A stretch of DNA of 56,895 nt, taken from contig NC_057719.1 of assembly GCF_004010195.1 (NCBI RefSeq), positions 10,193,300 to 10,250,194 on the forward strand. Direction: 5' to 3'. Source of the stretch: Chiloscyllium plagiosum. Taxonomy: Eukaryota. Position 1 is the stretch's first letter. Each line of letters opens with the position of its first letter. Below are positions 1-53,998 of this stretch, piece by piece. A program made the position numbers and the translations under genes. The notes beneath the pieces are model-generated. The model saw nothing but the letters and a program-made list of their open reading frames with translations, searched no databases and had not been told where the DNA came from.

Positions 1-256
1 TCCACCCTCCTCCCTGACCTATCACCTTCATCCCCTCCCCCACTCACCTACTGTACTCTACGCTACTTTCTCCCCACCCCCACCCTCCTGTAGCTTATCT
101 CTCCACCCTTCAGGCTCTCTGCCTTTATTCCTGATGAAGGGCTTTTGCCCGAAACGTCGATTTTACTGCTCCTCGGATGCTGCCTGAACTGCTGTGCTCT
201 TCCAGCACCACTAATCCAGAATCTGGTTTCCAGCATCTGCAGTCATTGTTTTTACT
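1..256 (+). mobile_element. Penelope-like element (family A, Neptune-like) 3' terminal repeat, cut by the window edge
   Basis: Pyrimidine-rich 3' region, HHR, then CTGCTCCTCGGATGCTGCCTGA..TCCAGCACCAC and the tail TCCAGCATCTGCAGTC. Homologous to the ends of the GIY-YIG-encoding element at 36206-37828 and to 47872-48505. Confidence 0.85.
127..162 (+). ncRNA. Minimal type I hammerhead ribozyme (PLE family A)
   Basis: attc CTGATGA a GGGC-tttt-GCCC GAAA CG TC gatt: intact core, 4-bp stem II, palindromic ACGT stem III, short stem I. Predicted cleavage after C158. Confidence 0.8.
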
Positions 257-261
257 TAGGT

Positions 262-582
262 AATTGTCTTTTTTCCTGGGAAGGAGGATTTCAAAACTAG
301 GGGACACATTTCGAAGGTGAGAGGAAATAGATTTACAAAGACATGTTTGGCAAATCTTTTACACAGAGGGTGGTTCATGTGTGGAATGAACTTCCTGAGG
401 AAGTGATGGAATTGGGTACAACTGCAATGTTTAAAAACATTTGGATAACTACATGAATAGGAAATGTTTTGAGGGATATGAGCCAGGAGGAGGGAGGTGG
501 GACTAGTTTAGTTTGGGGTTATGTTCAGCATGGACTGGTTGGATCAAAGGTTCTGTTTCTGAGCTGTATGACTCTATGGCTC
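262..582 (+). mobile_element. CR1/HER1-type LINE 3' fragment
   Basis: Degenerate TRGH..KVRG..FFTQRVV.VWNELPEEV coding remnant and the tail TGTATGACTCTATG. Confidence 0.85.
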
Positions 583-629
583 CATATGGAGAATGGTTAA
601 GTACAAGGCGGTAACTTCATTAAAGGTGT

Positions 630-3012: not shown

Positions 3013-4152
3013 CAATCAGTTGGGGACGTCTGCTTAGCAAGGACAAAATAAGACACTTTCATCCATGAGTTGCTCAGGCATCAGGGGGTTAAACCACTTG
3101 TCAACACTGAATAAGATTGCATTAAATTGAACTGAATCACACTCTCTGGAGGTTCCAGTGCCATGTTAGAATAGACACTGTTTGAAGATTTCACTACCTG
3201 TCCAAGAGAGTCCATAGCTCACAGTTGATGGATGTTGCTGCCTCCCCAGGGCTGGAATGCAACACAGGTCTCACTCTGTAGCAATGTCGGGGGAAGGAAA
3301 ATGAGGAGTCATTCATGTCTGCAGAAGCCCACGGCAAGAGTTGTAAAAACTGTTTACAGCTAGCTTTGTGGGATCGATAGTGCTTCTTAAAATTTAATTT
3401 TCATTCTTATCATCCATTTTCACCATGCAAAGCCCTCAGGAAAGGTGACAAGATGCCTAATCACAAACTAATCACTGATAATTGTATTTTGTTAATCAAA
3501 ATTTAAATATTGATTATACAACAGAGGGAGAGGAACGGGAAAAAAGAGCAGCTGGAATAAGAGACCAGAGCGGCATTAAACTGGATTATCTGAGTTTGAT
3601 CAATACCAGTCAAATAACTAGTCATTTAAAATTTAAAGGGTTTTTGAACACACCTCCTGCAGTTCAGGCCTAATCCTAAAATGTTAAAAAGATAAAACAT
3701 TCAGAATTAATGGCTACTTTCACGTTGGCTATTCATGTAAAAAATGGCAAACATTCAATTTTCGTTTTAAGAATAGTTTCATAAGAACATAAGCAATTGG
3801 AGCAGGAGTAGGCCATCTGATCCCTAAGCATGCTCCGCCATTTAATAAGATCATGGCTGATCTTTTCATGGACACAACTCCACTTACCCGCCCTCTCACC
3901 GTGACCCTTAATTCCTTTACTGTTCAAAACCAATCTATCTTTGGCTTAAAAACATTCAATGATGTATCCTCAACTGCTTCCCTGGGCAGGGAATTCCACA
4001 GATTCACTACCCTCTGGGTGAAGAAGTTCCGCCTCAACTCAGTCCGAAATCTGCTCCCCCAAATTTTGAAGCTATGCCCCTGAGCTCTAGTTTCATCCAC
4101 CAGTGGAACAACCTCCCTGCTTCTATCTTGTCTATTCCCTTCTTAATTTTAT

Positions 4153-5697: not shown

Positions 5698-5805
5698 TGC
5701 AGTACTCCAGGTGTGGCCTCACCAACAGCTACACCGCAATGCAAAAAATGTAAGAAATTTTACAACCTTCCACAAGGACACAGCTGTCTTTTCCATTTTC
5801 AATAA

Positions 5806-15741: not shown

Positions 15742-15897
15742 AGAGTGTGGCGCTGGAAAAGCACAGCAGCTCAGGCAGCATCCAAGCAGCAGGAGAATTG
15801 ACATTTCAGTCTCCTCGGATGCCGCCTGACCGGCTGTGCTTTTCCAACATGACACTCTTGACTCCGATTTCCAGCATCTGCAGTCCTCGTTTTCTCC
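15742..15897. mobile_element. Palindromic mini-PLE (family A)
   Basis: Inverted arms of the PLE terminus; 15-bp TSD TC(A/G)TTTGTGACTTTG at 15727-15741 and 15898-15912. Confidence 0.85.
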
Positions 15898-16511: not shown

Positions 16512-16592
16512 TAGTTGTGAAGCTGGAAAAGCACAGCAGGTCAGATGGCATCCGAGGAGCAGGAATGTCAACATTTCGGTCCAAAACCTTTT
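16512..16592 (-). mobile_element. PLE family A single arm ending in HHR stem II
   Basis: GCTGGAAAAGCACAGCAGGTCAG..CATCCGAGGAGCAGGA..CATTTCGG. Confidence 0.75.
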
Positions 16593-16765
16593 GCCAAGAC
16601 TTGAGTTTGGGTGGAAACATGACTTCTTCATATTTTATTCAACCAAAACCATTCATAATTTTCAAAACTTTCTCCCTTCAACCTCCTCTGCTCTGAGGAG
16701 GATAAACCCGGCTTCTCCAGTCTCTGCATGTAACTGAAGTCTTCCACTCTTTCCCCTGGCTGAAA

Positions 16766-18610: not shown

Positions 18611-18811
18611 AAACAAAAATGGAAATTGCTGGAGAAACTCAGCAGGTCTGGCAGCATCTGTGGAGAGAAAACAGACTTCACGTTTCAAATCCATTGATTC
18701 TTCTTCGGAACTGAGTTACTGGACCTGAAACATTAATTTGGTTTCTCTCTTCCACAGATGCTGACACCACGGTTTCAGATTTCCAGCATCCACAGTTCTA
18801 CGTTTTATATT
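18611..18811. mobile_element. Palindromic mini-PLE (family D)
   Basis: Inverted arms ..CAGCATCTGTGGAGAGA / TCTCT.CCACAGATGCTG meeting at HHR remnants; ~17-bp TSD ACT(A/G)TGGTGTTC(G/A)T(A/G)AC at 18594-18610 and 18812-18828. Confidence 0.7.
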
Positions 18812-21109: not shown

Positions 21110-21319
21110 GAGTCAAAAAGTGTGGTGCTGGAAAAGCGCAGCCAGTCAGGCAGCATTCGAGGAGCAGGAGAGTCGACGTTTCGAGTATAAGCTCTTCATC
21201 AGGATGAAGAGCTTATGCTCAAAATGTTGATTCTCCTGCTCCTCGGATGCTGCCTGATTGCTTTTCCAGTGCCACACTTTTTGACTCTGATCTCCAGCAT
21301 CTGCAGTTCCCACTTTCTC
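21110..21319. mobile_element. Palindromic mini-PLE (family A) centred on the HHR
   Basis: Arms of about 95 bp meet at CATCAGGATG; 14-bp TSD CTACTTTAA(A/G)TCCA at 21096-21109 and 21320-21333. Confidence 0.9.
21171..21205 (-). ncRNA. Hammerhead ribozyme (family A), intact core
   Basis: Minus strand: tc CTGATGA a GAG.cttata.CTC GAAA CG TC ga. Confidence 0.65.
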
Positions 21320-23800: not shown

Positions 23801-24038
23801 TTCCAATCAGGTCTAGTGCTTTTCATTCCACCAGCAGATAGACCTTACATTACAGCAAAGCAGTACGTTCTCAGAAGTATAATAAAAGCAAAAATACTGC
23901 AGGGGCTGCAAATTTGAGACGAACACAGAGAATGTTAGAGAAACTCATCAAGTCTGGCAGCGTCTCTGCCAGGAGAAACGCAATAACATTTTGAGTCCGA
24001 TATGGCTTCTTCAGAAATCAGCTTTTTCACACATATAG

Positions 24039-25045
24039 TCATAGAGTCACAGAGATATACAGCACAGAAACAGACCCTTCGGTCCAACTCGTCCACGCCA
24101 ACCAGATAGCCTAACTTAATCTAGTCCCATTTGACAGCACTTGGCCCCTGTCCCTCTAAACCCATCCTATTAGTATACCCATCCAGATGCCTTTTAAATG
24201 CTGTAATTGTACTAGCCTCCACCACTTCCTCTCATTTCATACACGCATCACCCTCTACATGAAAAAGTCGCCCCTTAGGTCCCTTTTATATCTTTCCCCT
24301 CTCACCCTGAACCTATGCTCTCCAGTTCTGGACTGCCCCACCCCAGGGAAAAGACCTTATCTATTTATCCTATCCGTGCCCCTCATGATATTATAAACTG
24401 CTATAATGTCACCTCTCAGCTTCCAACACTTCAGGGAAAACAGCCCCAACCTCTCCCTATAGCTCAAAAGGGTTCAGAAAAGACTTACAGATATGTTGCC
24501 AGGGTTGGAGGATTTGAGCTATAGGGAGAGATTTAATAAGGTGAGGCTGTTTTCTCTGGAGCATCAGATGCTGAGAGGTGACCTTATAGGGCTTAAAAAA
24601 ATCATGAGGGTTGAAAAGTGTGGTGCTGGAAAAGCGCAGCAGGCCAGGCAGCATCCGAGGAGCAGGAGAATCGACGTTTCGGGCCTTTCTTCAGGAATCC
24701 AAAATCATGAGTGGCATGGATAGGATAAATAGACAAGGACTTTTCCCTAGGGTGAGGGGAGTCCAGAATCAGAGGGCATAGGTTTAGGGTGAGAGGGAAA
24801 AGACTTAAAAGGGACCTAATGGCAAGTTTTTCCTACAAACGGTGGCACGTAAAGGAAGTGGTGGAGGCTAGTACAATTACAACATTTAAAAGGTATCTGG
24901 CTGGGTATATGAATAGGAAGGGTTTGGAGAAATATGGGCCAAGTGCTGGCAAATGAGACTAGATTAATTTAGGATATCTGGTCAGCACGGATGAGTTGGA
25001 TCGAACGGTCTGTTTCAGTAATGTGCATCTCTATGGTTGTATGTA
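24039..25045. mobile_element. Two HER1 3' ends joined head-to-head (minus 24039-24467, plus 24468-25045)
   Basis: Both carry outward-facing tails and cover the same region of the LINE. Confidence 0.88.
24609..24700 (-). mobile_element. PLE family A single arm ending just 5' of the HHR core
   Basis: Minus strand ATTCCTGAAGA..GCCCGAAACGTCGATTC; 11-bp TSD AAAATCATGAG at 24598-24608 and 24701-24711. Confidence 0.85.
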
Positions 25046-25148: not shown

Positions 25149-25336
25149 CTGAAAAATGTGTTGCTGAAAAAACGCAGCAGGTCAGGCAGCATCAAAGGAG
25201 CAGGAGAATCGACGTTTCGGGCATAAGCTCTTCTTCATTCTCCTGCTCCTTTGATGCTGCCTGACCTGCTGTGCTTTTCCAGCAACACATTTTTCAGCTC
25301 TGATCTCCAGCATCTGCAGTCCTCACTTTCTCCCTT
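25149..25336. mobile_element. Palindromic mini-PLE (family A)
   Basis: Near-perfect inverted arms; exact 13-bp TSD TCTCAATTCAAAG at 25136-25148 and 25337-25349. Confidence 0.92.
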
Positions 25337-28346: not shown

Positions 28347-28801
28347 TGGCTACTAAGGATAGCTGGGAACACCAGGTAAGGATAACACCAACTAATCACG
28401 AAATGATACGACCAGCTATCCTTAGTAGCCACGCACTCAGGTGACAAGCAACATGAATTCGATTGGGACAACACTACTATTATAGGACAAGCCAAACAGA
28501 GAACAGCCAGGGAATTCCTAGAGGCATGGCATTCATCCACAGATTCAATCAATAAGCACATCGACCTGGACCCAATATACCGACCACTGCAGCGGACAGC
28601 TGGAACTGACAACCGGAAGCGGCAGATACAAATCACTATAAATACTGGAGGAAACATCACAGAAGTGCTTCACAGGAGGCTCCCAAGCACTGAGGATGTC
28701 ACCGAGACAGGGGACGAAACGTCTGCAACACAAATTCCCAGCTCGGCGAACAGAACCACAACAACGAGCACCCGAGCTACAAATCTTCGCTCAAACTTTG
28801 A
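28347..28801 (+). mobile_element. PLE family B 3' end with tail and a short 5' inverted piece
   Basis: HEFDWDNTTIIGQAKQRTAREFLEAWHS; HHR; tail CCCGAGCTACAAATCTTC..AAACTTTG. 28347-28366 is the reverse complement of 28411-28430. Confidence 0.9.
28687..28726 (+). ncRNA. Minimal type I hammerhead ribozyme (family B)
   Basis: GCA CTGAGGA t GTC.CC-gagaca-GG.GAC GAAA CG TC TGC: stem I GCA/TGC, palindromic ACGT stem III. Confidence 0.85.
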
Positions 28802-29254
28802 AATGAGAAATTGCTGAAGGAAGATTAGAGAATGACGGAGAATGCTGTGAGCTAAGGCAACTTGACGTTGAAAGTGGGAGCACCCTACAACTATCTGATT
28901 AGAGAAGTACACAAGGGGCAGAGAAATGAACAGAAAGGACCTGCTCTAAGGCAGATCACTACTTTTTTGCTGCTACGATTTAAGACAATGAAGAGTGATA
29001 TTAGGCAGTGTGTAAAGCTGGAGCTCCATCCAATTCCATGGGCTTGCTGTTTGGCCTGTTAGGCTGACTTTGCCTGTGGAGTTTACAGCATGGATTCGGT
29101 GCCAAAGTCAGGTTAACCCCAGTTATTCTCAAGAAATACTTTGCCTTGCCTCACTAAAGCACGAGCAAGCTGTGAGCATCACAGAATTTGAAATCCAGCA
29201 CCTGATGTGGCCCTTTCAAAGTTAAACCAAAGCAGCATGTTCCATCTTCTTGGT

Positions 29255-29562
29255 TGACAAGCAGGAGGCTGGAAGAACACTGCAAGCTTCAGGAGGTGGA
29301 GAAGCTGACCTTTCAGGTGTTACCCTTCTTCAGGACTAGGGGTGGGTGTCAGGGAAGCTGCAGATAAAGGGGAGGGGAGGGGATGATGAGGTAAGGACAA
29401 CTGAACACAGGTAGAGGGTACAACCTGGTTGGTAAATGGGAGGAATGAATCTGGTTGGTGGTTGGAAGGAAGGGTCGGTCAGAGGGATGGAAGTGAGGAG
29501 GAGGGGCTGGGAAGGGAGTTGGGAGATGGGAAGGGAGATTAGTTGAAATTGGAGAACTGAGC
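29255..29562 (-). mobile_element. PLE-like 3' terminus (family E) with a degenerate HHR
   Basis: Minus strand CCTGAAGAAGGGTAACACCTGAAA followed by ..TCTTCCAGCCTCCTGCTTG; same family at 40318-40410. Confidence 0.6.
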
Positions 29563-31456: not shown

Positions 31457-32085
31457 GAGTCACAGAGTCATAGAGTCATACAGCACGGAGATGAGCCCTT
31501 TGGCCCAAACTGGTCCATGTTGACCAAAATGTCCATCCATGCTAACCTAATCTCCCTGCACTTGGCCCATGTATTCTGTGTCTTATGATCCTGCCCCTCT
31601 AGTTACTTGATGAAGCAGCAGTGCTCTGAAAGCTAGTACTTTCAAATAAACCTGTTGGATTATAACCCCATGTTGTGTGATTTTCAACTTTGTCCACCCT
31701 AGTCCAACACCGGCACCTCCACATCTTTCCTATCCATGTATTTGTCCAAATGCCTTGTAAATGTTGTTAATGTACCCAACTCAACCACTTCCACTGGCAG
31801 CTCATTCCATATGTGTACCACCCTCTGTACAAAAAGGCTGCCCCTCAGGTTCCCTTTTATTCTTTCCCCTCTAACCTTAAACTGGTGCCCTCTAGTCCTT
31901 GATTCCCCAACCCTGGGGAAAAGACAGAGTGCATTCACCCTGTCCATGTCTCTCATTATCTTGTACACTTCTATAAGATCCTCCCTCAATCTCTTATGGT
32001 CTGAAGAAAAAAGACCTAGCTTGTCCAACCTTTCCCTGTAACTCAGACCATTGAGTCCTGGCAGCATCCTTGCATATTTCTTCAG
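31457..32085 (-). mobile_element. CR1/HER1 3' fragment interrupted by a PLE family C terminus (about 31605-31724, plus strand)
   Basis: RMLPGLNGLSYRERLDKLGLFS..TRGHQFKVRG; the insert matches the arms at 44801-45003. Confidence 0.9.
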
Positions 32086-32989: not shown

Positions 32990-33235
32990 ACAGAAATAAA
33001 AAAGCCAAGCCTTGCTCGAACCTTGAGCAGCATCTGTGGAGACAGAAACAGACTGAACATTTTGAGTCCAATGACCCTGCATCAGACCGGTTTTGAGTTC
33101 TGAAGAAGAATCTTGCAGGACTTGAAACATTAACTCTGTTGCTCTCTCCACGGATGCTGCCAGACATGTTGAGTTTCTCCAGCATCCTCTGTGCTTGTTT
33201 TAGACTTCCAGCATCTGCAGCATTTTGACTTTGTT
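32990..33235. mobile_element. Palindromic mini-PLE (family D) with two opposed HHRs
   Basis: Plus HHR GAGTT CTGAAGA a gaatc..gactt GAAA CA TT AACTC (33095-33136; stem I GAGTT/AACTC); minus remnant CTGATGC.GGGTC.ATTG.GACTC at 33055-33086. Confidence 0.7.
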
Positions 33236-35530: not shown

Positions 35531-36205
35531 TGCCTTGTGCTGAGTCAACTGCAAAGAAGCAAGTTTGGCAGGTGGTAGTGTCCCTATGCTTGGGCCAGCA
35601 AAGGCCCACCTGTTCTACAAACATTTTTCATAGCATCTGCAAACAGGTTGATGAGGAAATATAGTAAACTTTGCTTTAATTGGCACCTTATTTCCAGCAC
35701 TCTTGATAATCTGTCAAAAATTATATACACCTCAAATACTGCAGAGTTTACTGTATCATTCTGTCCAATTACAATAGTTTTTAAAAAAAATTAAATTATC
35801 TCAATGTAAATATACTTGTTCATTCAAATGGTAATATTAAATACTAACAGTTGATTGAATTTCGAGTTAATTTCTCCTCAAATCCAGTGATCTACCGCGA
35901 TATATAAGTGGTCAGTTGAGGGTGCAAGTGAGAAGGCTGTCTGTCAATAAGTATTACTTAAGGCAAAATTGCATTATTATTGAAGTGACTGATGCTGTAA
36001 ATATAGTGTCACAGCGATGTGTATACCTGCATTATGTTTCCATTACTTAGTGTGTTTTAGTGCATTTTTACATTGATTATGTGGGCCTCTTGATTCTCCA
36101 GATTATTTGATCAATCAGGACACTCCTGATTCCATAGATGCCAGATAATAAGAAGTTTACTGTATCTACAAGTTCCACATCGAATCAAGCAGTTGTATAT
36201 CTGGA

Positions 36206-37828
36206 GTCAAGAGTGTGGTGCTGGAAAAGCACAGCCGGTCAGGCAGCATCTGAGGAGCAGGAGAATTGATGTTCCGGGCATAAACCCTTCACCGGGAACG
36301 ACGCTTGTGGGTCGGGGCTGAGAGATAGATGGGAGGGGGTGGGTTGGGGGAGGTAGCTGGGTAAGTGATAGGTAGATAAAGGTGAGGGAGAAGGTGATAG
36401 GTCAGAGGGGACAATGATGGACAGTGCTGAAGGGCAGTGCTGAATTGGACGTTTGGGACTGCGATACTGTGGGGGAAGGGAAATGAGGAAGCTGTGGAAA
36501 TCCATATTTATCCAGTGTGGTTGCAGAGTCCCAAGATGGAATATGAGGCATTCCTCCTCCAGGCGTCAGGTGGTAATGGTTTGGCGGTGAAGGAGGCCCA
36601 AGACCTGCATGTCCTTGACGAAGTGGGAGGGGGAGTTGAAGTGTTCAGCCACGGGGTAGTGGGGTTGGTCGGTACAGGTGTCCCAGAGATGTTCTCTGAA
36701 ATGATCCACAAGAAGGTGTCCTGTCTCCCTAATGTAGAGGAGACCATATTGGGTGCAACAGATGCAGTAGATGACATTGGGAGAGGTACAGGTGAATTTC
36801 TGACAGATGTGGAAGGATCCCTTGATGCCTTGGACAGGGATGAGGGGAGTGGTGTGGGCGCAGGTTTTACACTTCCTGCGGTAGAAGGGAAAGGTGCCAG
36901 GAGTGGCGTGTGGGCTGGTGGGGGGTGTGAACCTGACAAGGGAGTTGTGGAGGGAATGGTCTTTTTGAAATGCTGATGGGAGTGAGGAGAGAAATATATC
37001 TCTGATAATAGGGTCCATTTGGAGGTGGCGGAAATGGCAAAAGATGATGCGTTGTAAGCGGAAGTTAATGGGGTGGAAGGTGAGGACCGGGGGGTTCTGT
37101 CCTTGTTGCGTTGGAAGGGGTAGGGTTCAAGGGTGGTGGTGCGTGAAGTGGAGGAGATACGCTGGAGGGCATCGTCAACCACGTGGGAAGGGAAGTTGCG
37201 ATCGTGGAAGAAGGAGGCCATCTGGGACTTTCTGAGATGGAATGGTCATCCTGGGAACAGATGCGGCAGAGACGGAGCAATTGGCAATAAGGGATGACAT
37301 TTTTACAGGGGTTAGGATGGGTGTGGTGTAGTCTAGGTAGCTGTGGGAGTCAGTAGGTTTGTAGTATATGTCTGTGGTTAGTTGGTCTCCAGAGACGGTG
37401 ATAGAGAGGTCCAGGAAGGGGAGGGAGGTTGCCGAGATGGTGCAGGTGAATTTGAGGTCAGGGTGGACGGTGTTGGTAAAGTTGATGAACTGTTCAACCT
37501 CCTCATGGGAGCACAAGGCAGCGTCGATACAGTCACCGATGTAGTGGAGGAACAGGTGGGGAGTGGTGCCAGTGTAACTGTGGAAGATGGACAGTTCCAC
37601 ATATCCGACAAACAGGCAGGCATAGCTGGGTTCCATGCGGGACTCCAACCCCACCCCCTCCTCCCATTTATCTCTCAGCCCAGACCCACAAGCCTCATTC
37701 CTGATGAAGGGCTTATGCCCGAAACATCGATTCTCCTGCTCCTCGGGTGCTGCCTGACCTGCTGTGCTTTTCCAGCACCACACTCTCAATTCTGATCTCC
37801 AGCATCTGCAGTCCTCACTTTCTCCTCA
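36206..37828 (-). mobile_element. Neptune-like PLE (family A), 5'-truncated RT + GIY-YIG, with an inverted terminal copy (37640-37828)
   Basis: SRMEPSYACLFVG..HYIGDCI..LPFLDLSI..DIYYKPTDSHSYLDY and RRKCKTC..FTCTSPNVIYCICCTQYGLLYIRETG..FREH; 13-bp TSD at 36193-36205 and 37829-37841. Confidence 0.92.
37697..37732 (+). ncRNA. Hammerhead ribozyme (family A), stem III palindrome mutated
   Basis: attc CTGATGA a GGGC-ttat-GCCC GAAA CA TC gatt. Confidence 0.7.
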
Positions 37829-38044
37829 TCGTATGTCTGGACGCTGCATTTACTAATCATGTCACCTCTCGGTGGAAGAATGAGCAGAAATGCAGTGCAA
37901 TGTTGGCTGAACATTAATCCTATTCAGTCATATTTCAAATTAACAACCTCCCGCAGAGCAGGACGTATCAGCCCCAGGTCTAAATGCATTCAGTATGTGC
38001 AGGGACACAAGGTTGACTGCAGGAACAGAAGGACTGTCCAATCA

Positions 38045-40030
38045 GAGCCAGTTGAGAAGACAGGGCATGTACACACTGGAGTATAGAAGGACAAGAGGTG
38101 ACCTTATTGAAACATGGAAGATTCTTAGGTGGTTTGACAGGGTAAATGTGGAAAGTGTGTTTCCTCTTGTGGAAGAATCTAGGACCAGACAGTATGATTG
38201 CAGAATAAGGGGTCACACATTTAAGACTGAGATGAGGAGGATTTTGTTCTCTTGGAGGGTGGTGAATCTGCAGAATTCTTTCCCATTGAGGGCTGCAGAG
38301 GCTGGGTCATTCAGCATACTCAAGCCTGAGATAAACAGGTTAATATACAAAGTTTGTGAGAAGATTTGCAGCTCGGGTGCTCGTTGTTGTGGTTCTGTTC
38401 GCCGAGCTGGGAATTTGTGTTGCTGGTTTGAATCTACTGCTTCCGGTTGTCAGTTCCAGCTGTCCGCTGCAGTGGTCGGTATACTGGGTCCAGGTTGATA
38501 TGCTTATTGATTGAATCTGTCGATGAGTGCCATGCCTCTAGGAATTCCCTGGCTGTCCTCTGTTTGGCTTGTCCTATAATAGTAGTGTTGTCGAATTCAT
38601 GTTACTTGTCATCTGCGTGTGTGGCTACTAAGGATAGCTGGTCGTGTCGTTTCGTGGCTAGTTGGTGTTCATGGACACGGATCGTTAGCTGTCTTCCTGT
38701 TTGTCCTATGCAGTGTTTTGTGCAGTCCTTGCATGGGATTTTGTACACTACATTGGTTTTGCTCATGCTGGGTATCGGGTCCTTCGTTCTGGTGAGTTGT
38801 TGTCTGAGAGTGGCTGTTGGTTTGTGTGCTGTTATGAGTCCTAGTGGTCACAGTAGTCTGGCTGTCAGTTCAGAAATGTTTTTGATGTATGGTAGTGTGG
38901 CNNNNNNNNNNNNNNNNNNNNNNNNNNNNNNNNNNNNNNNNNNNNNNNNNNNNNNNNNNNNNNNNNNNNNNNNNNNNNNNNNNNNNNNNNNNNNNNNNNN
39001 NNNNNNNNNNNNNNNNNNNNNNNNNNNNNNNNNNNNNNNNNNNNNNNNNNNNNNNNNNNNNNNNNNNNNNNNNNNNNNNNNNNNNNNNNNNNNNNNNNNN
39101 NNNNNNNNNNNNNNNNNNNNNNNNNNNNNNNNNNNNNNNNNNNNNNNNNNNNNNNNNNNNNNNNNNNNNNNNNNNNNNNNNNNNNNNNNNNNNNNNNNNN
39201 NNNNNNNNNNNNNNNNNNNNNNNNNNNNNNNNNNNNNNNNNNNNNNNNNNNNNNNNNNNNNNNNNNNNNNNNNNNNNNNNNNNNNNNNNNNNNNNNNNNN
39301 NNNNNNNNNNNNNNNNNNNNNNNNNNNNNNNNNNNNNNNNNNNNNNNNNNNNNNNNNNNNNNNNNNNNNNNNNNNNNNNNNNNNNNNNNNNNNNNNNNNN
39401 NNNNNNNNNNNNNNNNNNNNNNNNNNNNNNNNNNNNNNNNNNNNNNNNNNNNNNNNNNNNNNNNNNNNNNNNNNNNNNNNNNNNNNNNNNNNNNNNNNNN
39501 NNNNNNNNNNNNNNNNNNNNNNNNNNNNNNNNNNNNNNNNNNNNNNACAAAACGCTACATAGGACAAACAGGAAGACAGCTAACGATCCGCATACATGAA
39601 CACCAACTAGCCACAAAATGATATGACCAGCTATCCTTAGTAGCCACACACGCAGATGACAAGTAACATGAATTCGACTGGAACAACACTACTATTATAG
39701 GACAAGCCAAACAGAGAACAGCCAGGGAATTCCTAGAGGCATGGCACTCATCCACAGATTCAATCAATAAGCACATCGACCTGGACTCAATATACCGACC
39801 ATTGCAACGGACAGCTGGAACTGACAACCGGAAGCGGCAGAGACAAACCACGATAAAATCACAGAAGCGCTTCACAGGAGGCTCCCAAGCACTGAGGATG
39901 TCACCTAGACAGGGGACAAAACGTCTGCAACACAAATTCCCAGCTCGGCAAACAGAGCCACAACAGGTTTTTATACAGTAGGGGAATCAAGAGTTATGGG
40001 GGAAAGGCAGCAAACTGGAGTTGAGGATTG
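38045..40030 (+). mobile_element. CR1 3' fragment interrupted by an inverted PLE pair
   Basis: LRRQGMYTLEYRRTRGDLIETWKILR..TRQY..RIRG; resumes after 39977. Confidence 0.8.
38350..39962. mobile_element. Inverted pair of PLE family B 3' ends (minus 38350-38901, gap, plus 39547-39965)
   Basis: GIY-YIG region on both arms; 16-bp TSD AACAGGTT(AA/TT)TATACA at 38334-38349 and 39962-39977; the plus-arm HHR has GAAA mutated to AAAA. Confidence 0.88.
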
Positions 40031-40280: not shown

Positions 40281-40933
40281 CTGTTCTCTATGATGAGCAG
40301 ATCAGCTTTGATCTCATCCTGAAGAAGGGATACACCTGAACCAACAATGTCTCCCCCTCCTGATGCTGCCTGGTTTGCTGTGTCCTTCCAGCCTCCTGCT
40401 TGCCTACCTTGAACTCCTTGAATGGCAGTGCAGAATCAATGGGCTAGATAGTCTGCTGCTATGCCTCCTGAGAAGGATATCACAAGACTGGCTACCCCAA
40501 GTCTATTCACATTCCTGGGTCTTGAAGATCAGAAAAGTTCCTACAGAGTGAAATTTCTCTTCATTCCAGATCCTTGTCCTCTGACGTAATTAATAAAAAG
40601 TATTCAGGATGTCACAAAACATCAGAAATTTTTCTCATCTTGACAGCAGCTTTGGCTGATGTTAAGAGTGAAGTAAGCAACAGGTTCTAACCAAGAGGAA
40701 TTGTGTGACTGAGTTGCGCAGATGCATCACGGCCACCATTTTAAATGACGTTGCTGTATTAGAGCCAGAATAAAATATTTAAAGTGAACAAAAAGCAGCA
40801 ATCACTCACTCTGGATGTTATGAGCAGGTGAGAATGGATGCATCTGCACCCCTCTGTTCAACCTCATTAGTTAGTCACAACAAAGGTTTAAGTTATTTCT
40901 GCTCAAGGCTAGACCCACGTCCAATTCAAAATA

Positions 40934-42617: not shown

Positions 42618-43160
42618 TGAAAACCGAAAGAACTGCTGATGCTGGAAATCAGAAACCATAACAGAAATTGTTGGAAAAGCTCGGTAAGTCTGGCAGCATC
42701 GGTGGACAGAAATCAGAGTTAACATTTCGGGTCCAGTGACCCCCTCCTCAGAACCTCAGTGGAGCAGCACAGTGGCTCAGCGGTTAGAACTGCTGCCTCA
42801 CAGCATCAGGGACCCGGGTTTGATTCCAGCCTTGGGTGACTGTGTGCAGTTTGCAGTTCTCCCCATGTCTGCATAGGTTTTCCCCCCCCGGATGCTCTGG
42901 TTTCCTCCCACAATCCAAAGGTGTACAGGTTAGGGTGGATTGGCTATGCTAGATTGCCCCTAGTGTCCAGGGATGTGCAGGCTAATTGGATTAGCCATGG
43001 GGAAAGCAAGTTTACAAAGATAGGATATCTGGGTGGACTGGTCTTCAGAGGGTCAGTGTGGACTTGATGGACCAAATGGCCTGCTTCCACACTGTAGGGA
43101 TTCTATGATTAGATGCTGCCAGACCTGCTGAGCTTTTCCAGCAATTTCTGTTTTTGTTTC
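42618..43160. mobile_element. Palindromic PLE (family D) split by an HE1 SINE (42760-43110, plus strand)
   Basis: Left arm ends at a minus-strand HHR GTT CTGAGGA g GGGTC-actg-GACCC GAAA TG TT AAC (42716-42756); right arm AGATGCTGCCAGACCTGCTGAG. Confidence 0.8.
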
Positions 43161-44800
43161 TAAGCGAGAGCACTGTGCACAAATTCATACCTTACATGGT
43201 GCCTACATTTTACAAGGAGCTCAGCGAGCTGTGAGGTACTCTTGGGTGTGCAAAGATAATGAAAAGCGCTACGTAAATGCAAGCTGTTACTTTTCTCTCT
43301 TCTACCCAAACAGTGATGGTATTCACTCATACTAACGCAAAATACTATGGATTCGGGAAAACTGGAAGAGAAAACAAGATTGCTGCAAATGCTCAGCAGG
43401 TCAGGCAGCTTCTGTGGAGAGAATCAGAACTGGAACTGATGTCCATTGGCCTGATACATTGTTCTCTCCACAGATATCACCAAAGCAGTGAAGAATTTTC
43501 AGCATGTCTTGTTTTTATTCAATTAGATGATTTTATTAAATAAAATGTACATTTTTTACAAGGTTCAAATATGCAGATAATAATCTTGCAAGATGAAAAG
43601 ATGTTGCTGTCAATCCACTGTCCTGTCTCTGTTCTTTGTGATGTGGCAGCTATGTTAACTGTTGCTGTAATCCAAGAATCTATACAAAATAAGGCTGCAA
43701 TAAATAAATGACCAGGCAAGCCTTTGTGACAAAGATCAAATCTGATCTCTATGATATTTGGTGCATGCCTCAACAAACATGACTGTTATTCCATTATCAA
43801 ATATTTAGACAAAGTATCACAGATGTCAATGGACTGTGTGTTGAATGTTTATCAAAAATACTGTCTGCAAGAATGGGTTTATCTCTTCATGCTGAGAATC
43901 AGGAGTTCTGGGAAAATAACACAGATGTGGAGATAGACCAATCATTTCCTTGAATTACATGAAGTAATCCTTTAATCTTGAACTTTTTGTTTTAGACCTG
44001 ATAAGGAGCACTGATTTACTGCAGTAAAGTCAAACAATACACACAGGTCTGATTACACAGGAATATTGCGCTCAGCAGTGGAATGTGGCTGGAAGTATTG
44101 CAAAATGCCGTTATTAACAAATGCTTCAGACATCATTTCAACTGCATATTAATCCCTATTCCCCCATACTACCAAGTTAAATAATGGAGAAATGGCTAGA
44201 ATAAGAAAAGTGCTTTCAATTCACCAGCAACTATGTGCAATCGACCATGACTTTGACTCAATCTAATCAATCTCCCAAGGAAGTCTAAAAATGCCTTCAT
44301 ATCTTCCACATGTCTTAGATCAAGGAAAATTAAGAAAACATTGTTATCCATCTTGAGTCATTTTCCACACAATTCATTTTGTTACTGGAATGGCTTCCTT
44401 ACTGACATCACTGTGGTCCCCAAAACACGTGTCAAGGACATCCCATATATCGTAGGAATATCTCAGTTCTCAATAGACTGACAACACTCAATGCTGAACC
44501 AACCAGAACATATTGTATCTTATCTTTACCCAAATGATTTCAAGTCCCTTTCATAAAATTGATTGATAAGTCAAACGTATAAATAAGTTATCTGACCGTA
44601 GGAAATAGGACATAGGCCTTTTAGCTACTCTGCCATTCAACATGATCCTGGCTGATCTTCTACCTCTACAGCACTGTACCACATGGTACACATATCTCGT
44701 GACATCTTTAACATCAATGGCAGGGACTAGGTTGGCTCAGTTGGTACAACCTCTCCCTCATAAGTCAGTGTACTGTGGCTTCAAGGTCTTCTCCACATCA

Positions 44801-45003
44801 TGTAGAGGTGGTAGTGTTGGACTGGGGTGGACAAAGTTAAAAAATCACACAACACCACTTTATAATCCAACAGGTTTATTTGGGTGCACTAGCTTTCGGA
44901 GTGCTGCTCCTTTAGTTACCTGATGAAGGTGCAGCTCTCCAAAAGCTAGTACTTCCAAATAAACCTGTTGGACTATAACTTGGTGTTGTGTGATTTTTTA
45001 ACT
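44801..45003. mobile_element. Palindromic mini-PLE (family C) centred on the HHR
   Basis: Arms of about 85 bp; the two arms together give CTGATGA a GGAGC-agc-(G)CTCC GAAA GC TA GTG (AGCT palindrome); exact 12-bp TSD TTCTCCACATCA at 44789-44800 and 45004-45015. Confidence 0.88.
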
Positions 45004-45219
45004 TTCTCCACATCAGTTAACTTGAAAATACAGAACAGCAATAAAGGATTGCAGTCGCCTCTGAACCAAGAGCTCTTCTGTTCCATGGGTCTAGTCAGCA
45101 TTGAAGATAGCAAAGGAACACAGAGTTTGGTGCCCTGACCACAGCTTAACTCTATTGATCTGGTTGTCACTTGCGGGATCTTGTGTTGGCCTCCATTGCA
45201 AGTTGCACACGGCCATGTT

Positions 45220-47871: not shown

Positions 47872-48505
47872 GAGTTGAGATCAGAGTGGTGCTGGAAAAG
47901 CACAGCAGGTCAGGCAGCATCCAAGGAGCAGGAAAATCAACATTTCGGGCAAAAGCTCTTCATCAGGAATAGAGGCAGGGAGCCTCCAGGGTGGAGAGAT
48001 AAATGGGAGGAGGGTGGGGCTGAGGAGAAGGTAGCAAAGAGTACAATAGGTGAATGGGAGTGGGGATGGAGGTGATAGGTCAGGGAGGATTAGATTAGAT
48101 TAGATTAGATTACGGGAATTGAACCCGGGTCTCAGGCGCTGTGAGGCAGCAGTGCTAACCACTGTGCCACCGTGCCGCCCCTTAAGGGTGGGGGAAAGTA
48201 GCAAAGAGTACAATAGGTGACTGGGAGGTGAGGATAGAGGTGATAGGTCAGAGAGGAGGGTGGAGTGGATAGGTGGGAAGGGAGATAGGCAGGTAGGACA
48301 GGTCATGAGGACAGTGCTGAGCTGGAAGGTTGGAACAAGGTGGGGGGAGGGGAAATGAGGAAACTAGTGAAGTCCACATTGATGCCCTGGTGTTGAAGTG
48401 TTCCGAGGCGGAAAATGAGGCGTTCTTCCTCCAGGCGTCGGGTGGTGAGGGAGCAGCGGTAGAGGAGGCCCAGGACCTGTATGTCCTCGGCAGAGTGGGA
48501 GGAAG
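47872..48505 (-). mobile_element. PLE family A 3' end with a nested mini-SINE
   Basis: HSAEDIQVLGLL..RRLEEERLIFRLGTLQHQGINVDF (GIY-YIG C-terminus); CpG-decayed HHR at 47935-47970. Confidence 0.9.
48089..48180 (-). mobile_element. HE1 tRNA-like head fused directly to a (TAATC)n tail
   Basis: Minus strand GGGCGGCACGGTGGCACAGTGGTTAGCACTGCTGCCTCACAGCGCCTGAGACCCGGGTTCAATTCCCG(TAATC)5. Confidence 0.85.
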
Positions 48506-49329: not shown

Positions 49330-49682
49330 GTTCCAGGTCTTTAAACTAACAGATGTGATTCAATAATGGGGCAACACTTGCCAAACAATCCTAACTGTGC
49401 TAAAAAGCTACATCAGCAACCAAATTAAGAAAATCAGTGGAACTCATTAATACTTGCTAGAAGCAACATAAATTCACACAGAGATACCTGTTTCCTGCAA
49501 ATAGAAGGAATTAGTTTAAGCTTTGCACTTGTTTTAATTGCCCAGCAGTTTGGAATCCTATTGTTCCCAGTTGCTTTCCCTGAGCCAAGACCTCCACTAA
49601 TCAGAATTGCCAAGCAATCCTTTTCTCCAGCAGTATAAATAGTTGTGAGAGTTTGAAATTAGGCATGCTTGCATTCAGTCTG
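49330..49682 (+). mobile_element. Old PLE (family F) GIY-YIG C-terminal fossil and 3' region
   Basis: RCDSIMGQHLPNNPNCAK..LLEAT*IHTEIPVSCK*KE resembles the PLE SAI..HL..E..I..P.L..Q pattern. Confidence 0.55.
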
Positions 49683-51084
49683 TAATTTACCATTCAGATT
49701 ATGAAAATGTATAGAGTTAGGTTAGCTGATTCAAAATTGAGGGCATCCTGGTTAAAATTGCAACGTTGCAAAGTGTGTGTGTGTGTGTGTGTAGCAAAGG
49801 GGATTAATTACACTCTTAGAGTTGGAATCTAAAATCGGCTTTGTTACTGTTATGCATCAACCTTTATTTCCACTAATTCTGCTGGTCAAGGGACACAGAA
49901 TTGCAGAAGGCGAGTTACTCGTCGAATGATGGCCACCCAGTCGCATTTCACGAAACCCTCCCACCCTGAGCCTCTACTTTATCTCCCTGTAAACCATACA
50001 AATTTGATGTGATATATGGTCATGCACTTCAACAGAATTAATTTTGCCGAGCTGTGAAAAAGCTGGGCTGAGAGACTTATTTGAATTAATCATTCCAGGA
50101 GCTGCCATGGTGTCAGCAGGCTGACTGGCCTCCTCTGGTTTGCCAAGACCTTGTAACCTTGCACATGTTTGCAGGTTTTTGATTTTCTTGGTTTTAAGTA
50201 AATGCAAACATCAGCAACAATTTAGAAAAAAATGTATTTTCATAACAGTAATATGCCGGCAACAATCTATGGGCAAATAAATTGCTTTTTTCATTGATCA
50301 ATCGAAACAAAGATAGACCACATCTGTTTGAGCCTTCCCTCAGGGATGTGCCATTGGCACTGCAGTAGGTATATTCATGAAACAGATGTTGAAGACTTAA
50401 AATCACATTTATGGAAATTGAATTCTCTATAATCTTTACCTAACATTGCTATTGAATGAAAACCACGTGTCATTTTAGCAATTATTCCAAAATGCGTATA
50501 ATTAAAATTGCTCTTATTCCAATATGCGTATAATTAAAATTGCTCTTGGGAGAGAGTGAAACACCACAAATGGGGAAAGTGAATAGTGCCGAGGGACCAA
50601 GCATTGAATGAATCAGTAAAACCCAAACATGTAGGATAAATGCAGGAACAGCAGAGGTGCTCGTTAAGATAAGTTTGAGATGAGAATAGAAAGCCATGTG
50701 ATGTTAGTTTGGCAAATTGCAAATTTGTTTTCGGATGCTGTAGCCTCAGGGCTCCAATGTGTTTTATTGATGTCTTCCTATTAAATAATGGAGAGCTCAA
50801 CTCAACCACTTTGTGTCCTGACTGCACCAGAAAGAGTCGAGAGAAAACCCAAACAAAACACACACCGCCATTCGGGAAAATGTTCACAGACAAAACCTTT
50901 TTACCACTAAACGAATTGAAGTTTTACCTCAAGATTGTAGGTAACTTTGTTTTTCTGAGATTACCTGTGTCTTTAACCCTTCCCTCATGATTCAACTGCT
51001 TCCTGTGTTGAGAACTCCAGAGGCTCACCACTCTCTGTGTGAAAACAATTCTCCTCATGTTATTCCTAAATGGTTCATCATGCA

Positions 51085-51990
51085 TTCACCACAAAGGGAT
51101 ACAGGAAAGCCATACACACAGACCAAGTCCTGAACTACAAAAGCAACCACTCCAACACACACAAAAGAAGTTGCATCAAGACACTATTCAAAAGGGCCAC
51201 AACACACTGCAGTACACCAGAACTGCAAAAAGAGGAAGAACACCTATACAATGTATTCGCCAAAAACGGATACCCCCGCAATTTCATCAACAGATGCCTA
51301 AGGGAAAGACAACGGAATGAGGACATGCCGCAACCCAAAGGACTAGCCACACTACCATACATCAAAAACATTTCTGAACTGACAGCCAGACTACTGCGAC
51401 CACTAGGACTCATAACAGCACACAAACCAACAACCACTCTCAGACAACAACTCACCAGAACAAAGGACTCAATACCCAGCATGAGCAAAACCAATGTAGT
51501 GTACAAAATCCCATGCAAGGACTGCACAAAACACTACATAGGACAAACAGGAAGACAGCTAACGATCCGCATCCATGAACACCAACTAGCCACAAAACGA
51601 CACGACCAGCTATCCTTAGTAGCCAAACGCAGATGACAAGCAACATGAATTCAACTGGGACAACACTACTATTATAGGACAAGCCAAACAGAGAACAGCC
51701 AGGGAATTCCTAGAGGCATGGCACTCATCCACAGATTCAATCAACAAGCACATCAACCTGGACCCAATATACCGACCACTGCAACGGACAGCTGGAACTG
51801 ACAACCGGAAGCGGCAGATTCAAACCACTATAAATGCCGGAGGAAAGATCACAGAAGTGCTTCACAGGAGGCTCCCAAGCACTGAGGATGTCACCTCGAC
51901 AGGGGACGAAACGTCTGCAACACAAATTCCCAGCTCGGCGAATAGAACCACAACAACGAGCACCCGAGCTACAAATCTCACAAACTTTGA
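51085..51990 (+). mobile_element. PLE family B 5'-truncated copy acting as the upstream pseudo-LTR
   Basis: YRKA.HTDQVLNYKSNH..LPYIKNISE..NVVYKIPCKDCTKHYIGQTGRQLTIRIHEH (thumb + GIY-YIG), then TATAAA, HHR and tail. Confidence 0.93.
51879..51918 (+). ncRNA. Minimal type I hammerhead ribozyme (family B)
   Basis: GCA CTGAGGA t GTC.CCT-cgac-AGG.GAC GAAA CG TC TGC; predicted cleavage after C51915. Confidence 0.88.
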
Positions 51991-53998
51991 ACACCTACGG
52001 GTGAGAGACGCTAAGACAAGCCAGGAAATGGGAATCCTGTGCCAACCGCCTAAGCGCCACATACAAACAACTCCGGCTCCTGCATGAATGCCGAAAGAAT
52101 CAAATCCTTCCACCATGTGTCAGATACAGACCGCCAGTCAACAACCTACAAGCCAGGGACACAGCCAGACAGAACGTATTCAGGATGATCCAGGTAATGC
52201 TTATAGATGCTCACAACAGACTTCACAAATACAGACAAGAAACTGCGCGCCAAAAATCGTTAATTTCAAAAACCACCAATCAGGAATGGACCCAGACCAT
52301 AGAACGGGCTGTCACCATAGGACAGAACAGGACCACACACCGCAAAAAAACGTCACTAAAAGAAAAAATGGCCAAACTAACACACAAACAATACTGGCCA
52401 AGGGACTCAACTACAACCAAAGGCACGCCTAGACAGCAGACTTCCTAGCAGCACTAGAATGCACACTCAGGAACAATGGACTGACAGAGAGACACAACAA
52501 ACAGTGAGACAAAGTATCGTACCCTGATAACAAGGAAAAGACAAACATATAACCTCAACACCAAGGAGAGGAAAGCACTAAAATCACTAAGAAACAATAA
52601 GAACATAATCATACTACCAGCAGACAAAGGCAGAATGACGGTCATCCTGGACAAAGCAGACTGCATCCAAAAAGTGCAACAACTACTTGCAGATACCAAC
52701 ACCTACCAAAAGAGGGAGTTTGACCCCACGCCACAGCTCACCAATAGGATAAACAACACACTGAGGAACCTATAAAAAAACGGACAGATAACCAGGTCTG
52801 ACCTACAAAGAATGAAACCTGAAAGCAACAACACCCCCAGATTCTATGGACTACCTAAAGTGCACAAACCAGACATCCCACTCAGACCCAGAGTATCACT
52901 ACCAGGGACACCATCACACAAACTAGCTAAAGAACNNNNNNNNNNNNNNNNNNNNNNNNNNNNNNNNNNNNNNNNNNNNNNNNNNNNNNNNNNNNNNNNN
53001 NNNNNNNNNNNNNNNNNNNNNNNNNNNNNNNNNNNNNNNNNNNNNNNNNNNNNNNNNNNNNNNNNNNNNNNNNNNNNNNNNNNNNNNNNNNNNNNNNNNN
53101 NNNNNNNNNNNNNNNNNNNNNNNNNNNNNNNNNNNNNNNNNNNNNNNNNNNNNNNNNNNNNNNNNNNNNNNNNNNNNNNNNNNNNNNNNNNNNNNNNNNN
53201 NNNNNNNNNNNNNNNNNNNNNNNNNNNNNNNNNNNNNNNNNNNNNNNNNNNNNNNNNNNNNNNNNNNNNNNNNNNNNNNNNNNNNNNNNNNNNNNNNNNN
53301 NNNNNNNNNNNNNNNNNNNNNNNNNNNNNNNNNNNNNNNNNNNNNNNNNNNNNNNNNNNNNNNNNNNNNNNNNNNNNNNNNNNNNNNCTACCATACATCA
53401 AAAACATTTCTGAACTGACAGCCAGACTACTGTGACCACTAGGACTCATAACAGCACACAAACAACAGCCACTCTCAGACAACAACTCACCAGAACGAAG
53501 GACCCAATACCCAGCATGAGCAAAACCAATGTAGTGTACAAATCCCATGCAAGGACTGCACAAAACACTGCATAGGTCAAACAGGAAGACAACTAACGGT
53601 CCACATCCATGAACACCAACTAGCCACGAAACGACACGACCAACTATTCTTAGTAGCCACACGCACAGATGACAAGCAACATGAATTCGATTGGGACAAC
53701 ACTACTATTATAGGACAAGCCAAACAGAGAACAGCCAGGGAATTCCTAGAGGCATGGCACTCATCCACAGATTCAATCAATAAGCATATCAACCTGGACC
53801 CAATATACCGACCACTGCAACAGACAGCTGGAACTGACAACCGGAAGGGGCAGATTCAAACCACAACAAATGCCGGAGGAAAGATCACAGAAGCGCTTCA
53901 CAGGAGGCTCCCAAGCACTGAGGATGTCACCTAGACAGGGGACGAAACGTCTGCAACACAAATTCCCAGCTCGGCGTACAGAACCACAACAACGAGCA
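51888..53998 (+). pseudogene. Near-full-length PLE family B ORF (N-terminus, RT, GIY-YIG), disrupted; RT core falls in the gap at 52936-53387
   Basis: TYG*ETLRQARKWE..LHECRKNQILP; LAKGLNY; IILPADKGRMTVILDK; PRFYGLPKVHKPDIPLRP; LPYIKNISE; frameshifted GIY-YIG. Confidence 0.9.
53915..53954 (+). ncRNA. Minimal type I hammerhead ribozyme (family B)
   Basis: GCA CTGAGGA t GTC.CCT-agac-AGG.GAC GAAA CG TC TGC, intact. Confidence 0.88.

What the first reader, a model, noticed from the sequence alone, without database searches (positions are those of the whole stretch)
127..53954. At least five distinct hammerhead families (more than 15 motifs) in 57 kb, with covarying stems
Seen: family A CTGATGA-GGGC/GCCC-GAAACGTC (131, 37701, and minus at about 21200, 24690, 25230 and 47960). 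Family B CTGAGGA-GTC..GAC-GAAACGTC (28690, 39892, 51882, 53918). Family C CTGATGA-GGAGC/GCTCC-GAAAGCTA (44920, 31608). Family D CTGA(A/G)GA-GGGTC/GACCC-GAAA(C)GTT (33100, minus 42750). Family E (minus 29330, 40319). Stems I and II differ between families but keep pairing, and stem III is reduced to a 4-nt palindrome (ACGT or AGCT) in families A-D. Established: this is the dimer-dependent minimal HHR form. Inference: families sharing ACGT could cross-dimerise, and intact copies could cleave a host pre-mRNA crossing this region.
Basis: partly seen in the sequence, partly recalled or inferred. Interest (0 to 1): 0.7.

Follow-up and report, generated by a model that had tools for sequence, protein, structure and literature searches.

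The report
Penelope retrotransposon hammerheads, mostly decayed
These motifs are the already known tiny hammerhead ribozymes at the ends of Penelope-type jumping genes, which fill this shark-like genome, and most copies in this window are broken; elsewhere in the genome, copies fused to U6 RNA exactly at the predicted cut suggest that the ribozymes likely do cut in living cells.

Summary
The five motif families are real, but they are the known minimal hammerheads in the pseudo-LTRs of Penelope-like elements: A, C, D and E are Neptune-like, B is Poseidon-like. Only 5 of the 16 listed sites are intact (131, 21202, 28690, 51882, 53918). Intact-motif density is ordinary (0.09 versus 0.07 per kb), and the genome holds about a million remnants. 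Stem I covaries between families (17 of 18 native pairs versus 44 of 90 crossed). A dimer needs crossed stem I pairing, so an A+B heterodimer is predicted to fail. No host exon was found, and copies decay neutrally, so host pre-mRNA cleavage has no support. Two genome-wide patterns matter more. First, 75 of 172 family A copies begin at the first bases of stem I, likely run-off copies of uncut RNA. Second, U6 snRNA is fused exactly at the predicted cut at 9 loci in families A, B and C; in a search that left the junction free, 7 of 7 matches were at the cut. That is indirect evidence of cleavage in vivo. This scan noted both patterns earlier on other windows of this genome; I took the U6 lead from those notes and retested it.

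The parts
127..235 (+). Family A pLTR end with an intact minimal hammerhead (core 131-158, predicted cut after 158)
15743..15876 (.). Family A head-to-head pair, both arms truncated inside or after the core
16514..16598 (-).
18622..18807 (.).
21117..21299 (.). Family A head-to-head pair; minus arm (C3 at 21202) has an intact core with a weak 2-bp stem I; plus arm truncated and decayed
23925..24016 (-). Family D remnant, G12 lost
24615..24698 (-). Short family A copy starting at the first base of stem I (-4); stem II deleted
25154..25312 (.). Family A fold-back; minus arm lacks C3, plus arm starts at about the cut site
28386..28803 (+). 5'-truncated Poseidon-like PLE: end of the GIY-YIG region plus pLTR with an intact family B hammerhead (28690-28723)
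29248..29453 (-). Family E copy with at least 120 nt of element sequence upstream; palindrome and stem I closing pair broken
31572..31699 (+). Family C copy, C3 changed
33026..33192 (.). Family D head-to-head pair, both arms decayed
36200..37830 (-). 5'-truncated Neptune-like PLE (RT fragment, Cys linker, GIY-YIG region) with a decayed 3' pLTR hammerhead at 36295 (minus) and an inverted 5' pLTR carrying the 37701 motif (plus, palindrome broken)
38348..39966 (.). Poseidon-like PLE in inverted arrangement across an assembly gap; 39892 motif has lost G12; the left end lacks the core
40315..40413 (+). Short family E copy, decayed
42661..42753 (-). Family D copy, near-intact (wobble palindrome)
43111..43430 (.). 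Two family D 3' fragments without a core, on opposite strands
44824..45011 (.). Family C head-to-head pair; plus arm has lost G12, minus arm truncated
47883..48086 (-). Family A copy with at least 120 nt of element sequence upstream; stem II and palindrome degraded
51070..53998 (+). Poseidon-like partial tandem (truncated copy, pLTR, RT and endonuclease ORF with a gap, pLTR) with two intact same-strand family B hammerheads (51882-51915, 53918-53951); the only natural same-element homodimer candidate in the window; the ORF's first ATG lies inside the hammerhead

Best explanation
The motifs are minimal type I hammerheads in the pseudo-LTRs of at least five Penelope-like retrotransposon families, and the window holds mostly broken, truncated insertion copies that likely do nothing for the host, while in active elements the ribozyme is predicted to cut only as a same-family dimer and likely does so in a minority of transcripts. 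Shown: PLE reading frames upstream in all five families, partial-tandem and head-to-head layouts, decay of copies, and stem I covariation between families. Inferred model: the element transcript likely starts at the first base of stem I. The PLE reverse transcriptase would prime 60-100 nt downstream of the cut site and run off that uncut 5' end, giving the common 100-130 nt stubs, often joined head to head. A smaller share of RNA would be cut at the NUH site, and the new 5'-OH end would occasionally be ligated to U6 snRNA and retro-copied. Family-specific stem I would limit dimers to the same or closely related families.
For: PLE link: a sense PLE protein match ends within 700 nt upstream of the motif in 2 of 30 A, 10 of 10 B, 2 of 30 C, 3 of 30 D and 10 of 30 E loci. 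Relatives of the B protein carry RVT_1, PF26215 and in some cases GIY-YIG (16 hits of 843 candidates). Layout matches the partial tandems and inverted 5' copies described by Craig et al. 2021. Stem I columns, not selected by the search patterns except the first base in A, pair in 10/10/10 of 10 B loci, 21/25/21/20 of 30 D, 18/24/20/23 of 30 E and 29/28/1/28 of 30 A. Across six lineages 17 of 18 native pairs form versus 44 of 90 crossed; 4 of 720 permutations reach the native value. 5' ends: 75 of 172 family A copies end at -7..0 relative to C3 (mode -4) versus 16 in -110..-8; 100 of 172 have an inverted arm; 28 of 29 short non-inverted copies have unrelated upstream DNA. RNA reads show the same junction, with 147 loose ends at -4. 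U6: with the junction free to lie 1-60 nt upstream, 7 of 7 matches (6 loci) join five T's to the first base after the predicted cut, control 0. A seventh family A locus came from the Rfam U6 search. One C locus is exact, and one B locus is exact in its inverted arm. U6 ligation needs a 5'-OH partner (Moldovan et al. 2019).
Against: No cleavage was measured. RNA reads showed no place where many molecules begin or end, neither at the cut nor at -4 (one poly(A) single-cell run, about 2% read, poorly suited; the second run laid 0 reads). The designed double hammerhead is not the minimum-energy fold for any pair. Main family A has a U-U mismatch in stem I. Ordinary copies show only a weak excess of 5' ends at the cut (14 in 9 nt versus 12 in 24 nt, window chosen after looking, at least 2 of them internal deletions). 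An extra G as a cap mark was not significant (4 of 15, p = 0.39). Two of 48 U6 matches join the PLE coding region away from the cut. Pfam support for the window's own fragments is sub-threshold (GIY-YIG E 0.03-0.08). In the anole element, cleavage needed protein, was not needed for insertion, and left no RNA-seq ends at the cut (Frangieh et al. 2024).
Confidence: 0.8

Rival explanations
1. Host-acting network: families sharing the palindrome cross-dimerise, and intact copies cleave a host pre-mRNA crossing this region.
For: Three intact B motifs lie on one strand. Family A copies occur in poly(A) RNA in both orientations. About 84 core-plus-palindrome motifs per 1.16 Mb means many introns will hold same-strand pairs (15 pairs within 4 kb, families not matched). 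A x A' and A x E are compatible on paper.
Against: A x B fails the stem I closing pair in both cores. Only 5 of 16 listed sites are intact. Copies lose core CpG bases freely: core and palindrome intact in 45 of 98 A, 16 of 48 C and 1 of 39 D copies. No host exon was found. Published dimer activity is low. Transcription across the window was not tested with reads.
Confidence: 0.05
2. The motif does not self-cleave in vivo. It serves as a folded signal or protein-binding site, and the U6 junctions come from another nuclease or from a template jump where reverse transcriptase stalls at the palindromic site.
For: Frangieh et al. found cleavage dispensable for insertion and saw no RNA ends at the cut. 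No ends were seen. The cut site lies in a short palindrome. U6 also joins SINE, LINE and PLE coding sequence in this genome.
Against: The junctions fall on the same bond in three families with different flanking sequence, carry exactly five T's, and in A and C show no microhomology. None lies at the much commoner -4 end (0 of 7). The catalytic core is kept across families whose stems differ.
Confidence: 0.12
3. The pile-up of 5' ends at stem I marks a reverse-transcriptase stop, a processing site or a splice boundary rather than a transcription start.
For: No molecule starts were seen at -4. The extra G was not significant. In D. virilis Penelope the intron's 3' end maps to the 5' end of helix I and the start site lies further upstream. 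The peak spans several bases (-7..0).
Against: Short copies share no upstream exon (28 of 29). Family A has no AG at the boundary. The boundary in A, D and E resembles an initiator consensus (recalled, not from a call).
Confidence: 0.3
4. The short copies are separate self-propagating non-autonomous elements (SINE-, MITE- or retrozyme-like) rather than stubs of full PLEs.
For: Most copies are 100-130 nt or hairpins without coding sequence.
Against: The same sequence continues into PLE reading frames in all five families. No tandem arrays of the motif occur in the window. Inverted junctions differ from copy to copy.
Confidence: 0.05

Closest known systems
Minimal hammerheads in pLTRs of metazoan PLEs (Cervera and de la Pena 2014, PMC4209133; parts 1-2 of 4 read, supplements not seen)
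   Same: Same core, bulged base before stem II, G10.1-C11.1 pair, palindromic 15.2-16.2, several consensus families per genome with covariation, mostly single motifs from truncated elements, pairs on opposite strands; reported in fish, coelacanth, Xenopus and reptiles.
   Different: Stem II is shorter here in A and E (4 bp) and stem I is 3-4 bp. Copy number is far higher (over 41,000 exact cores from five narrow patterns versus 4,000-9,000 reported for coelacanth and Xenopus). Sharks are not named in the parts read.
Poseidon element PAc of Anolis (Frangieh et al. 2024, PMC11167929; parts 1-2 of 4 and passages read, supplements not seen)
   Same: ORF start inside the hammerhead (cut 26 nt after the start codon there, 28 nt in family B), internal priming downstream of the ribozyme, extension of both target strands, uncut RNA as the main template.
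   Different: The parts read report no pile-up of genomic 5' ends at stem I and no U6 fusions; RNA-seq showed no ends at the cut.
Neptune and Penelope/Poseidon clades of EN+ PLEs (Craig et al. 2021, PMC8557442; passages read)
   Same: C-terminal GIY-YIG, partial tandems, inverted 5' copy, optional tail, hammerhead in the pLTR; Cys linker in Neptune as in A, D and E.
   Different: Clade assignment here rests on motifs and similarity, not on a tree. The paper calls hammerhead function in EN+ PLEs unclear.
U6/LINE-1 chimeras made by RtcB ligation (Moldovan et al. 2019, PMC6789731; passages read)
   Same: U6 ending in five U's joined to a retroelement RNA and retro-copied; needs a 5'-OH partner.
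   Different: L1 junctions are variable and the nuclease is undefined; here the junctions sit on one predicted ribozyme bond. 'Penelope' occurs 0 times in that paper.
Animal non-LTR retrozymes (bioRxiv 10.64898/2026.07.22.740005; passages read, supplements closed)
   Same: Hammerhead-bearing non-autonomous sequences derived from PLE pLTRs; one cartilaginous fish was sampled.
   Different: Retrozymes are defined by tandem arrays; none is present in this window.

Membership tests
Metazoan PLE minimal hammerhead | Core boxes C3-A9 and G12-A15.1 with N-U-H | tested here: met
   Met in tens of thousands of genomic copies; fully intact in 5 of 16 listed window sites
Metazoan PLE minimal hammerhead | Bulged base before stem II and G10.1-C11.1 pair | tested here: met
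Metazoan PLE minimal hammerhead | No stem III; palindromic 15.2-16.2 | tested here: met
   All five families genome-wide
Metazoan PLE minimal hammerhead | Covarying stems between consensus families | tested here: met
   Stem I 17 of 18 native versus 44 of 90 crossed; stem II was fixed by the search patterns, so it is not an independent test
Metazoan PLE minimal hammerhead | Located in the pLTR of a PLE | tested here: met
Metazoan PLE minimal hammerhead | Self-cleavage as a dimer | not testable with these tools
   Indirect only: U6 fusions at the predicted bond
EN+ Penelope-like elements | Single ORF with RT followed by GIY-YIG endonuclease | tested here: inconclusive
   No gap-free full ORF was recovered. 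RT and endonuclease fragments lie in the right order; relatives carry RVT_1 and GIY-YIG; direct Pfam hits are sub-threshold
EN+ Penelope-like elements | Partial tandem pLTRs, inverted 5' copy, optional tail | tested here: met
   51070-53998, 36200-37830 and 38348-39966; tail present or absent among family A loci
Neptune versus Penelope/Poseidon clade | Cys linker between RT and endonuclease, and position in the RT tree | tested here: inconclusive
   Cys linker seen in A, D and E and absent in B; C matches family A protein at 34-41% but its linker was not seen. No tree was built
Rfam hammerhead families | Score against the covariance models | tested here: not met
   0 hits at gathering score; no hammerhead among 12 matches at E up to 10
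Non-LTR retrozymes | Tandem arrays of hammerhead units | tested here: not met
   No such array among 33 tandem-repeat rows

The most novel reading that the evidence does not exclude
This genome keeps a fossil record of the PLE RNA's two 5' ends: a dominant uncut end at the first base of hammerhead stem I, and a ribozyme-made 5'-OH end captured by ligation to U6 in three families. That would be in vivo evidence that animal PLE minimal hammerheads cut in the germ line, with family-specific stem I acting as a dimer-partner code.
Probability: 0.65. Interest if true: 0.65.

Novelty: new member of a known kind. Interest (0 to 1): 0.45.

Why it matters
As stated, the finding is an ordinary slice of a genome full of a known motif. 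The added value lies outside the window. Whether PLE hammerheads cut in vivo, and what for, is open (Craig et al. 2021 call it unclear; Frangieh et al. 2024 saw no RNA ends at the cut). Base-exact U6 junctions at the predicted bond in three families, and a sharp 5' boundary at stem I, give two specific predictions for CAGE, cyclic-phosphate sequencing and dimer assays. The stem I matrix says which heterodimers should and should not cut.

Tried and rejected
Rfam found no hammerhead; its miRNA-like hits at 25173 and 44869 are the inverted pLTR pairs. Pfam gave nothing on 10 window fragments at E 0.01 and only sub-threshold GIY-YIG at E 1. The long 'open frames' picked for full-length family B elements were assembly gaps, and no long gap-free ORF came from the family A picks either. 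The first 5'-end mapping was confounded by inverted arms in the references and was redone with the arms removed. Family D 5' ends are unreliable (2 long references, 28 of 86 copies mapped). The short family B copies were an artefact of a related B' family. The extra-G cap test was inconclusive (4 of 15). The cut-site peak among ordinary copies is weak. Lower average divergence in the core than downstream (A 3.6% versus 9.9%, p = 0.01; C p = 0.38; D p = 0.025) was not taken as selection on copies: the downstream set includes subfamily-diagnostic sites, and invariant downstream positions are as conserved as the core. The 'family C' tags on U6 loci were SINE matches through one reference's flank and were dropped. 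No RNA holder was listed for the window stretch. Transcription across the window was not tested with reads, so a host transcript remains open. 148 ORFs in unmasked DNA gave one sub-threshold Pfam hit; short exons could be missed. Folding energies did not favour the designed dimer; the nearest-neighbour model does not score the catalytic core.


Full report
Observation. All 16 listed motifs are present near the stated coordinates, and a family-profile scan finds 32 related remnants in the window. A strict minimal-hammerhead descriptor gives 4 hits against a mean of 0.03 in 100 shuffles, so they are not chance. Rfam does not recognise them, as expected for a form without stem III. Site by site, only 131, 21202, 28690, 51882 and 53918 keep both core boxes, the palindrome, a G-C-closed stem II and the start of stem I. 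Site 42751 is near-intact and the other ten are broken. 'More than 15 motifs' is true of remnants, not of working ribozymes.

Genome context. The window lies on contig C10 of a 3.56 Gb assembly. Protein relatives include bamboo-shark (Chiloscyllium) entries at 78-88% identity, so the genome is shark-like. Exact matches to five narrow patterns number 17,217 (A), 18,102 (C), 5,568 (B), 614 (D) and 133 (E), with 0 in the reversed controls. In 120 evenly spaced 10-kb stretches (1,156,093 non-N bases) there are 383 remnants, 0.33 per kb, which extrapolates to about a million. The window has 0.58 per kb; 1.2% of resamples reach that. For motifs with core and palindrome intact, the window has 5 in 55.3 kb and the sample 84: 0.09 versus 0.07 per kb, which is ordinary.

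What they belong to. Every family continues upstream into PLE coding sequence in some loci: 2 of 30 A, 10 of 10 B, 2 of 30 C, 3 of 30 D and 10 of 30 E. Relatives of the B protein carry RVT_1 and PF26215, and some GIY-YIG. A, D and E show a Cys linker before the endonuclease, which Craig et al. 2021 give for Neptune; B lacks it and resembles Penelope/Poseidon; C is a more distant match to A. No tree was built. The window shows the typical layouts: a Neptune-like element with an inverted 5' pLTR at 36200-37830, an inverted Poseidon-like copy at 38348-39966, and a partial tandem at 51070-53998 with two intact same-strand B hammerheads. In B the first ATG lies inside the hammerhead, 28 nt before the cut. 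It opens the same peptide in several copies, and a relative's predicted RT-containing protein continues from that peptide, as in the anole element.

Covariation and dimer specificity. Stem I columns were not part of the search patterns (except the first base in A). They pair in 10/10/10 of 10 B loci, 21/25/21/20 of 30 D, 18/24/20/23 of 30 E and 29/28/1/28 of 30 A, where the third pair is a U-U mismatch; a subfamily A' has a full 4-bp stem. Across six lineages 17 of 18 native pairs form versus 44 of 90 crossed ones, and 4 of 720 permutations match that. The lineages are related, so this is not a strict probability. In a double hammerhead, stem I joins the 5' strand of one copy to the 3' strand of the other, so a shared palindrome is not enough. 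A x B fails the closing pair in both cores; B and C have no partner that forms both cores; A x A' and A x E fit; A x D and D x E fit in one core. The designed dimer was never the lowest-energy fold, consistent with the low activity reported.

Host cleavage. No exon was identified among 148 ORFs in unmasked DNA, and transcription across the window was not tested with reads. Copies decay freely: core and palindrome are intact in 45 of 98 A, 16 of 48 C and 1 of 39 D copies that inherited the whole core, with G12 (a CpG base) changed in 15-41%. The lower mean divergence of the core reflects differences between subfamilies downstream, not protection of copies. The B trio is the only compatible intact same-strand set in the window.

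Where copies begin. Mapping 172 of 188 sampled family A copies onto long references (dropped: near a stretch edge, N at the junction, or no alignment) puts 75 5' ends at -7..0 from C3, with the mode at -4, the first base of stem I. Only 16 lie in the 103 nt upstream and 18 run past -116. 100 of 172 have a head-to-head inverted arm. 28 of 29 short non-inverted A copies have unrelated upstream DNA, so these are true junctions. Family C shows 19 of 76 at -9..-2, though 3 of its 8 short non-inverted copies share upstream sequence with another copy; D and B could not be judged. In a poly(A) single-cell run from the same species label, 1,285 reads laid on a family A pLTR came from both strands about equally. 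Depth fell about fourfold at this boundary and 147 reads had loose ends at -4; no place showed many molecule starts or ends. The simplest reading is run-off of internally primed cDNA at the 5' end of uncut RNA, which fits Frangieh et al.. That the boundary is a transcription start is inferred; the initiator resemblance is recalled, and the extra-G test was inconclusive.

Evidence of cutting. Earlier notes of this scan pointed to U6 fusions, and I tested that lead. Of 48 Rfam U6 matches, all examined, 5 (at 4 loci) join family A at the first base after the predicted cut, 2 join the PLE coding region, and 1 joins family B. A search with one fusion as query added 3 loci but is biased toward that junction. 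A pattern that left the junction free over 1-60 nt, a range that includes the -4 boundary, returned 7 of 7 matches at the cut, each with five T's, across different A subfamilies, control 0. The same design gave one exact C fusion and one B locus that is exact in its inverted arm and in register, with four changed letters, in the other arm. That makes 9 loci in three families. Only 3 of 172 ordinary A copies start within 1 nt of the cut. Moldovan et al. show that U6 is ligated to 5'-OH ends, the end a hammerhead leaves (established chemistry). This is indirect, and a stall-and-jump or another nuclease is not excluded.

Literature. The motif class, its dimer logic and its abundance in fish genomes are published (PMC4209133, parts 1-2 of 4; review passages in PMC6765202; Lunse et al., RNA Biol 14:1499, seen only as a reference). 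Passages were read from PMC8557442, PMC3846280, PMC2377424, PMC6789731 and bioRxiv 2026.07.22.740005; PMC11167929 parts 1-2 of 4 and passages. A search for Penelope + shark + hammerhead ribozyme returned one review, seen as a listing. U6 snRNA + chimeric + Penelope + ribozyme returned 0 papers. None of the 12 papers listed (of 54) contained 'strong-stop' or 'truncated copies'. The library lacks most subscription journals, and unseen supplements of the 2014, 2024 and 2026 papers could list shark motifs or 5'-end data.

Verdict. The finding is a new member of a known kind, and the window is an ordinary sample of it. Interest 0.45 rests on the genome-wide 5'-end and U6 evidence, which makes the open question of in vivo cleavage testable and which this scan has noted before on other windows.

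Noticed in passing
L105, L077, L232, L235, L267, L276 (sampled genome stretches): A further Poseidon-like hammerhead family (B') related to B, with a changed third stem I pair and a fully paired 6-bp stem II where B has a mismatch; not seen in the window.
   Followed up: partly
window 33382-35530: A 34-bp tandem array of about 60 copies, split by a short gap, with strong strand skew.
   Followed up: no
window 6949-7263 and 8145-8308: Short tandem duplications (167 and 81 bp periods) sharing one unit, next to A-rich tracts.
   Followed up: no
U6 loci L293, L300, L301, L305, L310, L313-L320, L323, L326, L332-L334: About a third of the 48 U6 matches are followed closely by the 5' end of one SINE-like repeat; others by CR1-like or Tx1-like sequence (labels recalled) or a tRNA-like sequence.
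   Followed up: no
L312, L322/L337/L340, L372: Both arms of some head-to-head insertions carry the U6-pLTR junction, as if two cDNAs were made from the same kind of chimeric RNA.
   Followed up: partly
P0002: A bamboo-shark MAP3K7 isoform in the protein database ends in family B PLE endonuclease sequence: either exonisation or an annotation artefact.
   Followed up: no
window 55099-55584 (minus): ORF resembling the 3' end of a Tx1-type LINE (label recalled).
   Followed up: no
window N runs at 38902-39546 and 52936-53387; L051-L054: Assembly gaps fall inside family B elements again and again, so full-length young copies are probably under-assembled.
   Followed up: partly
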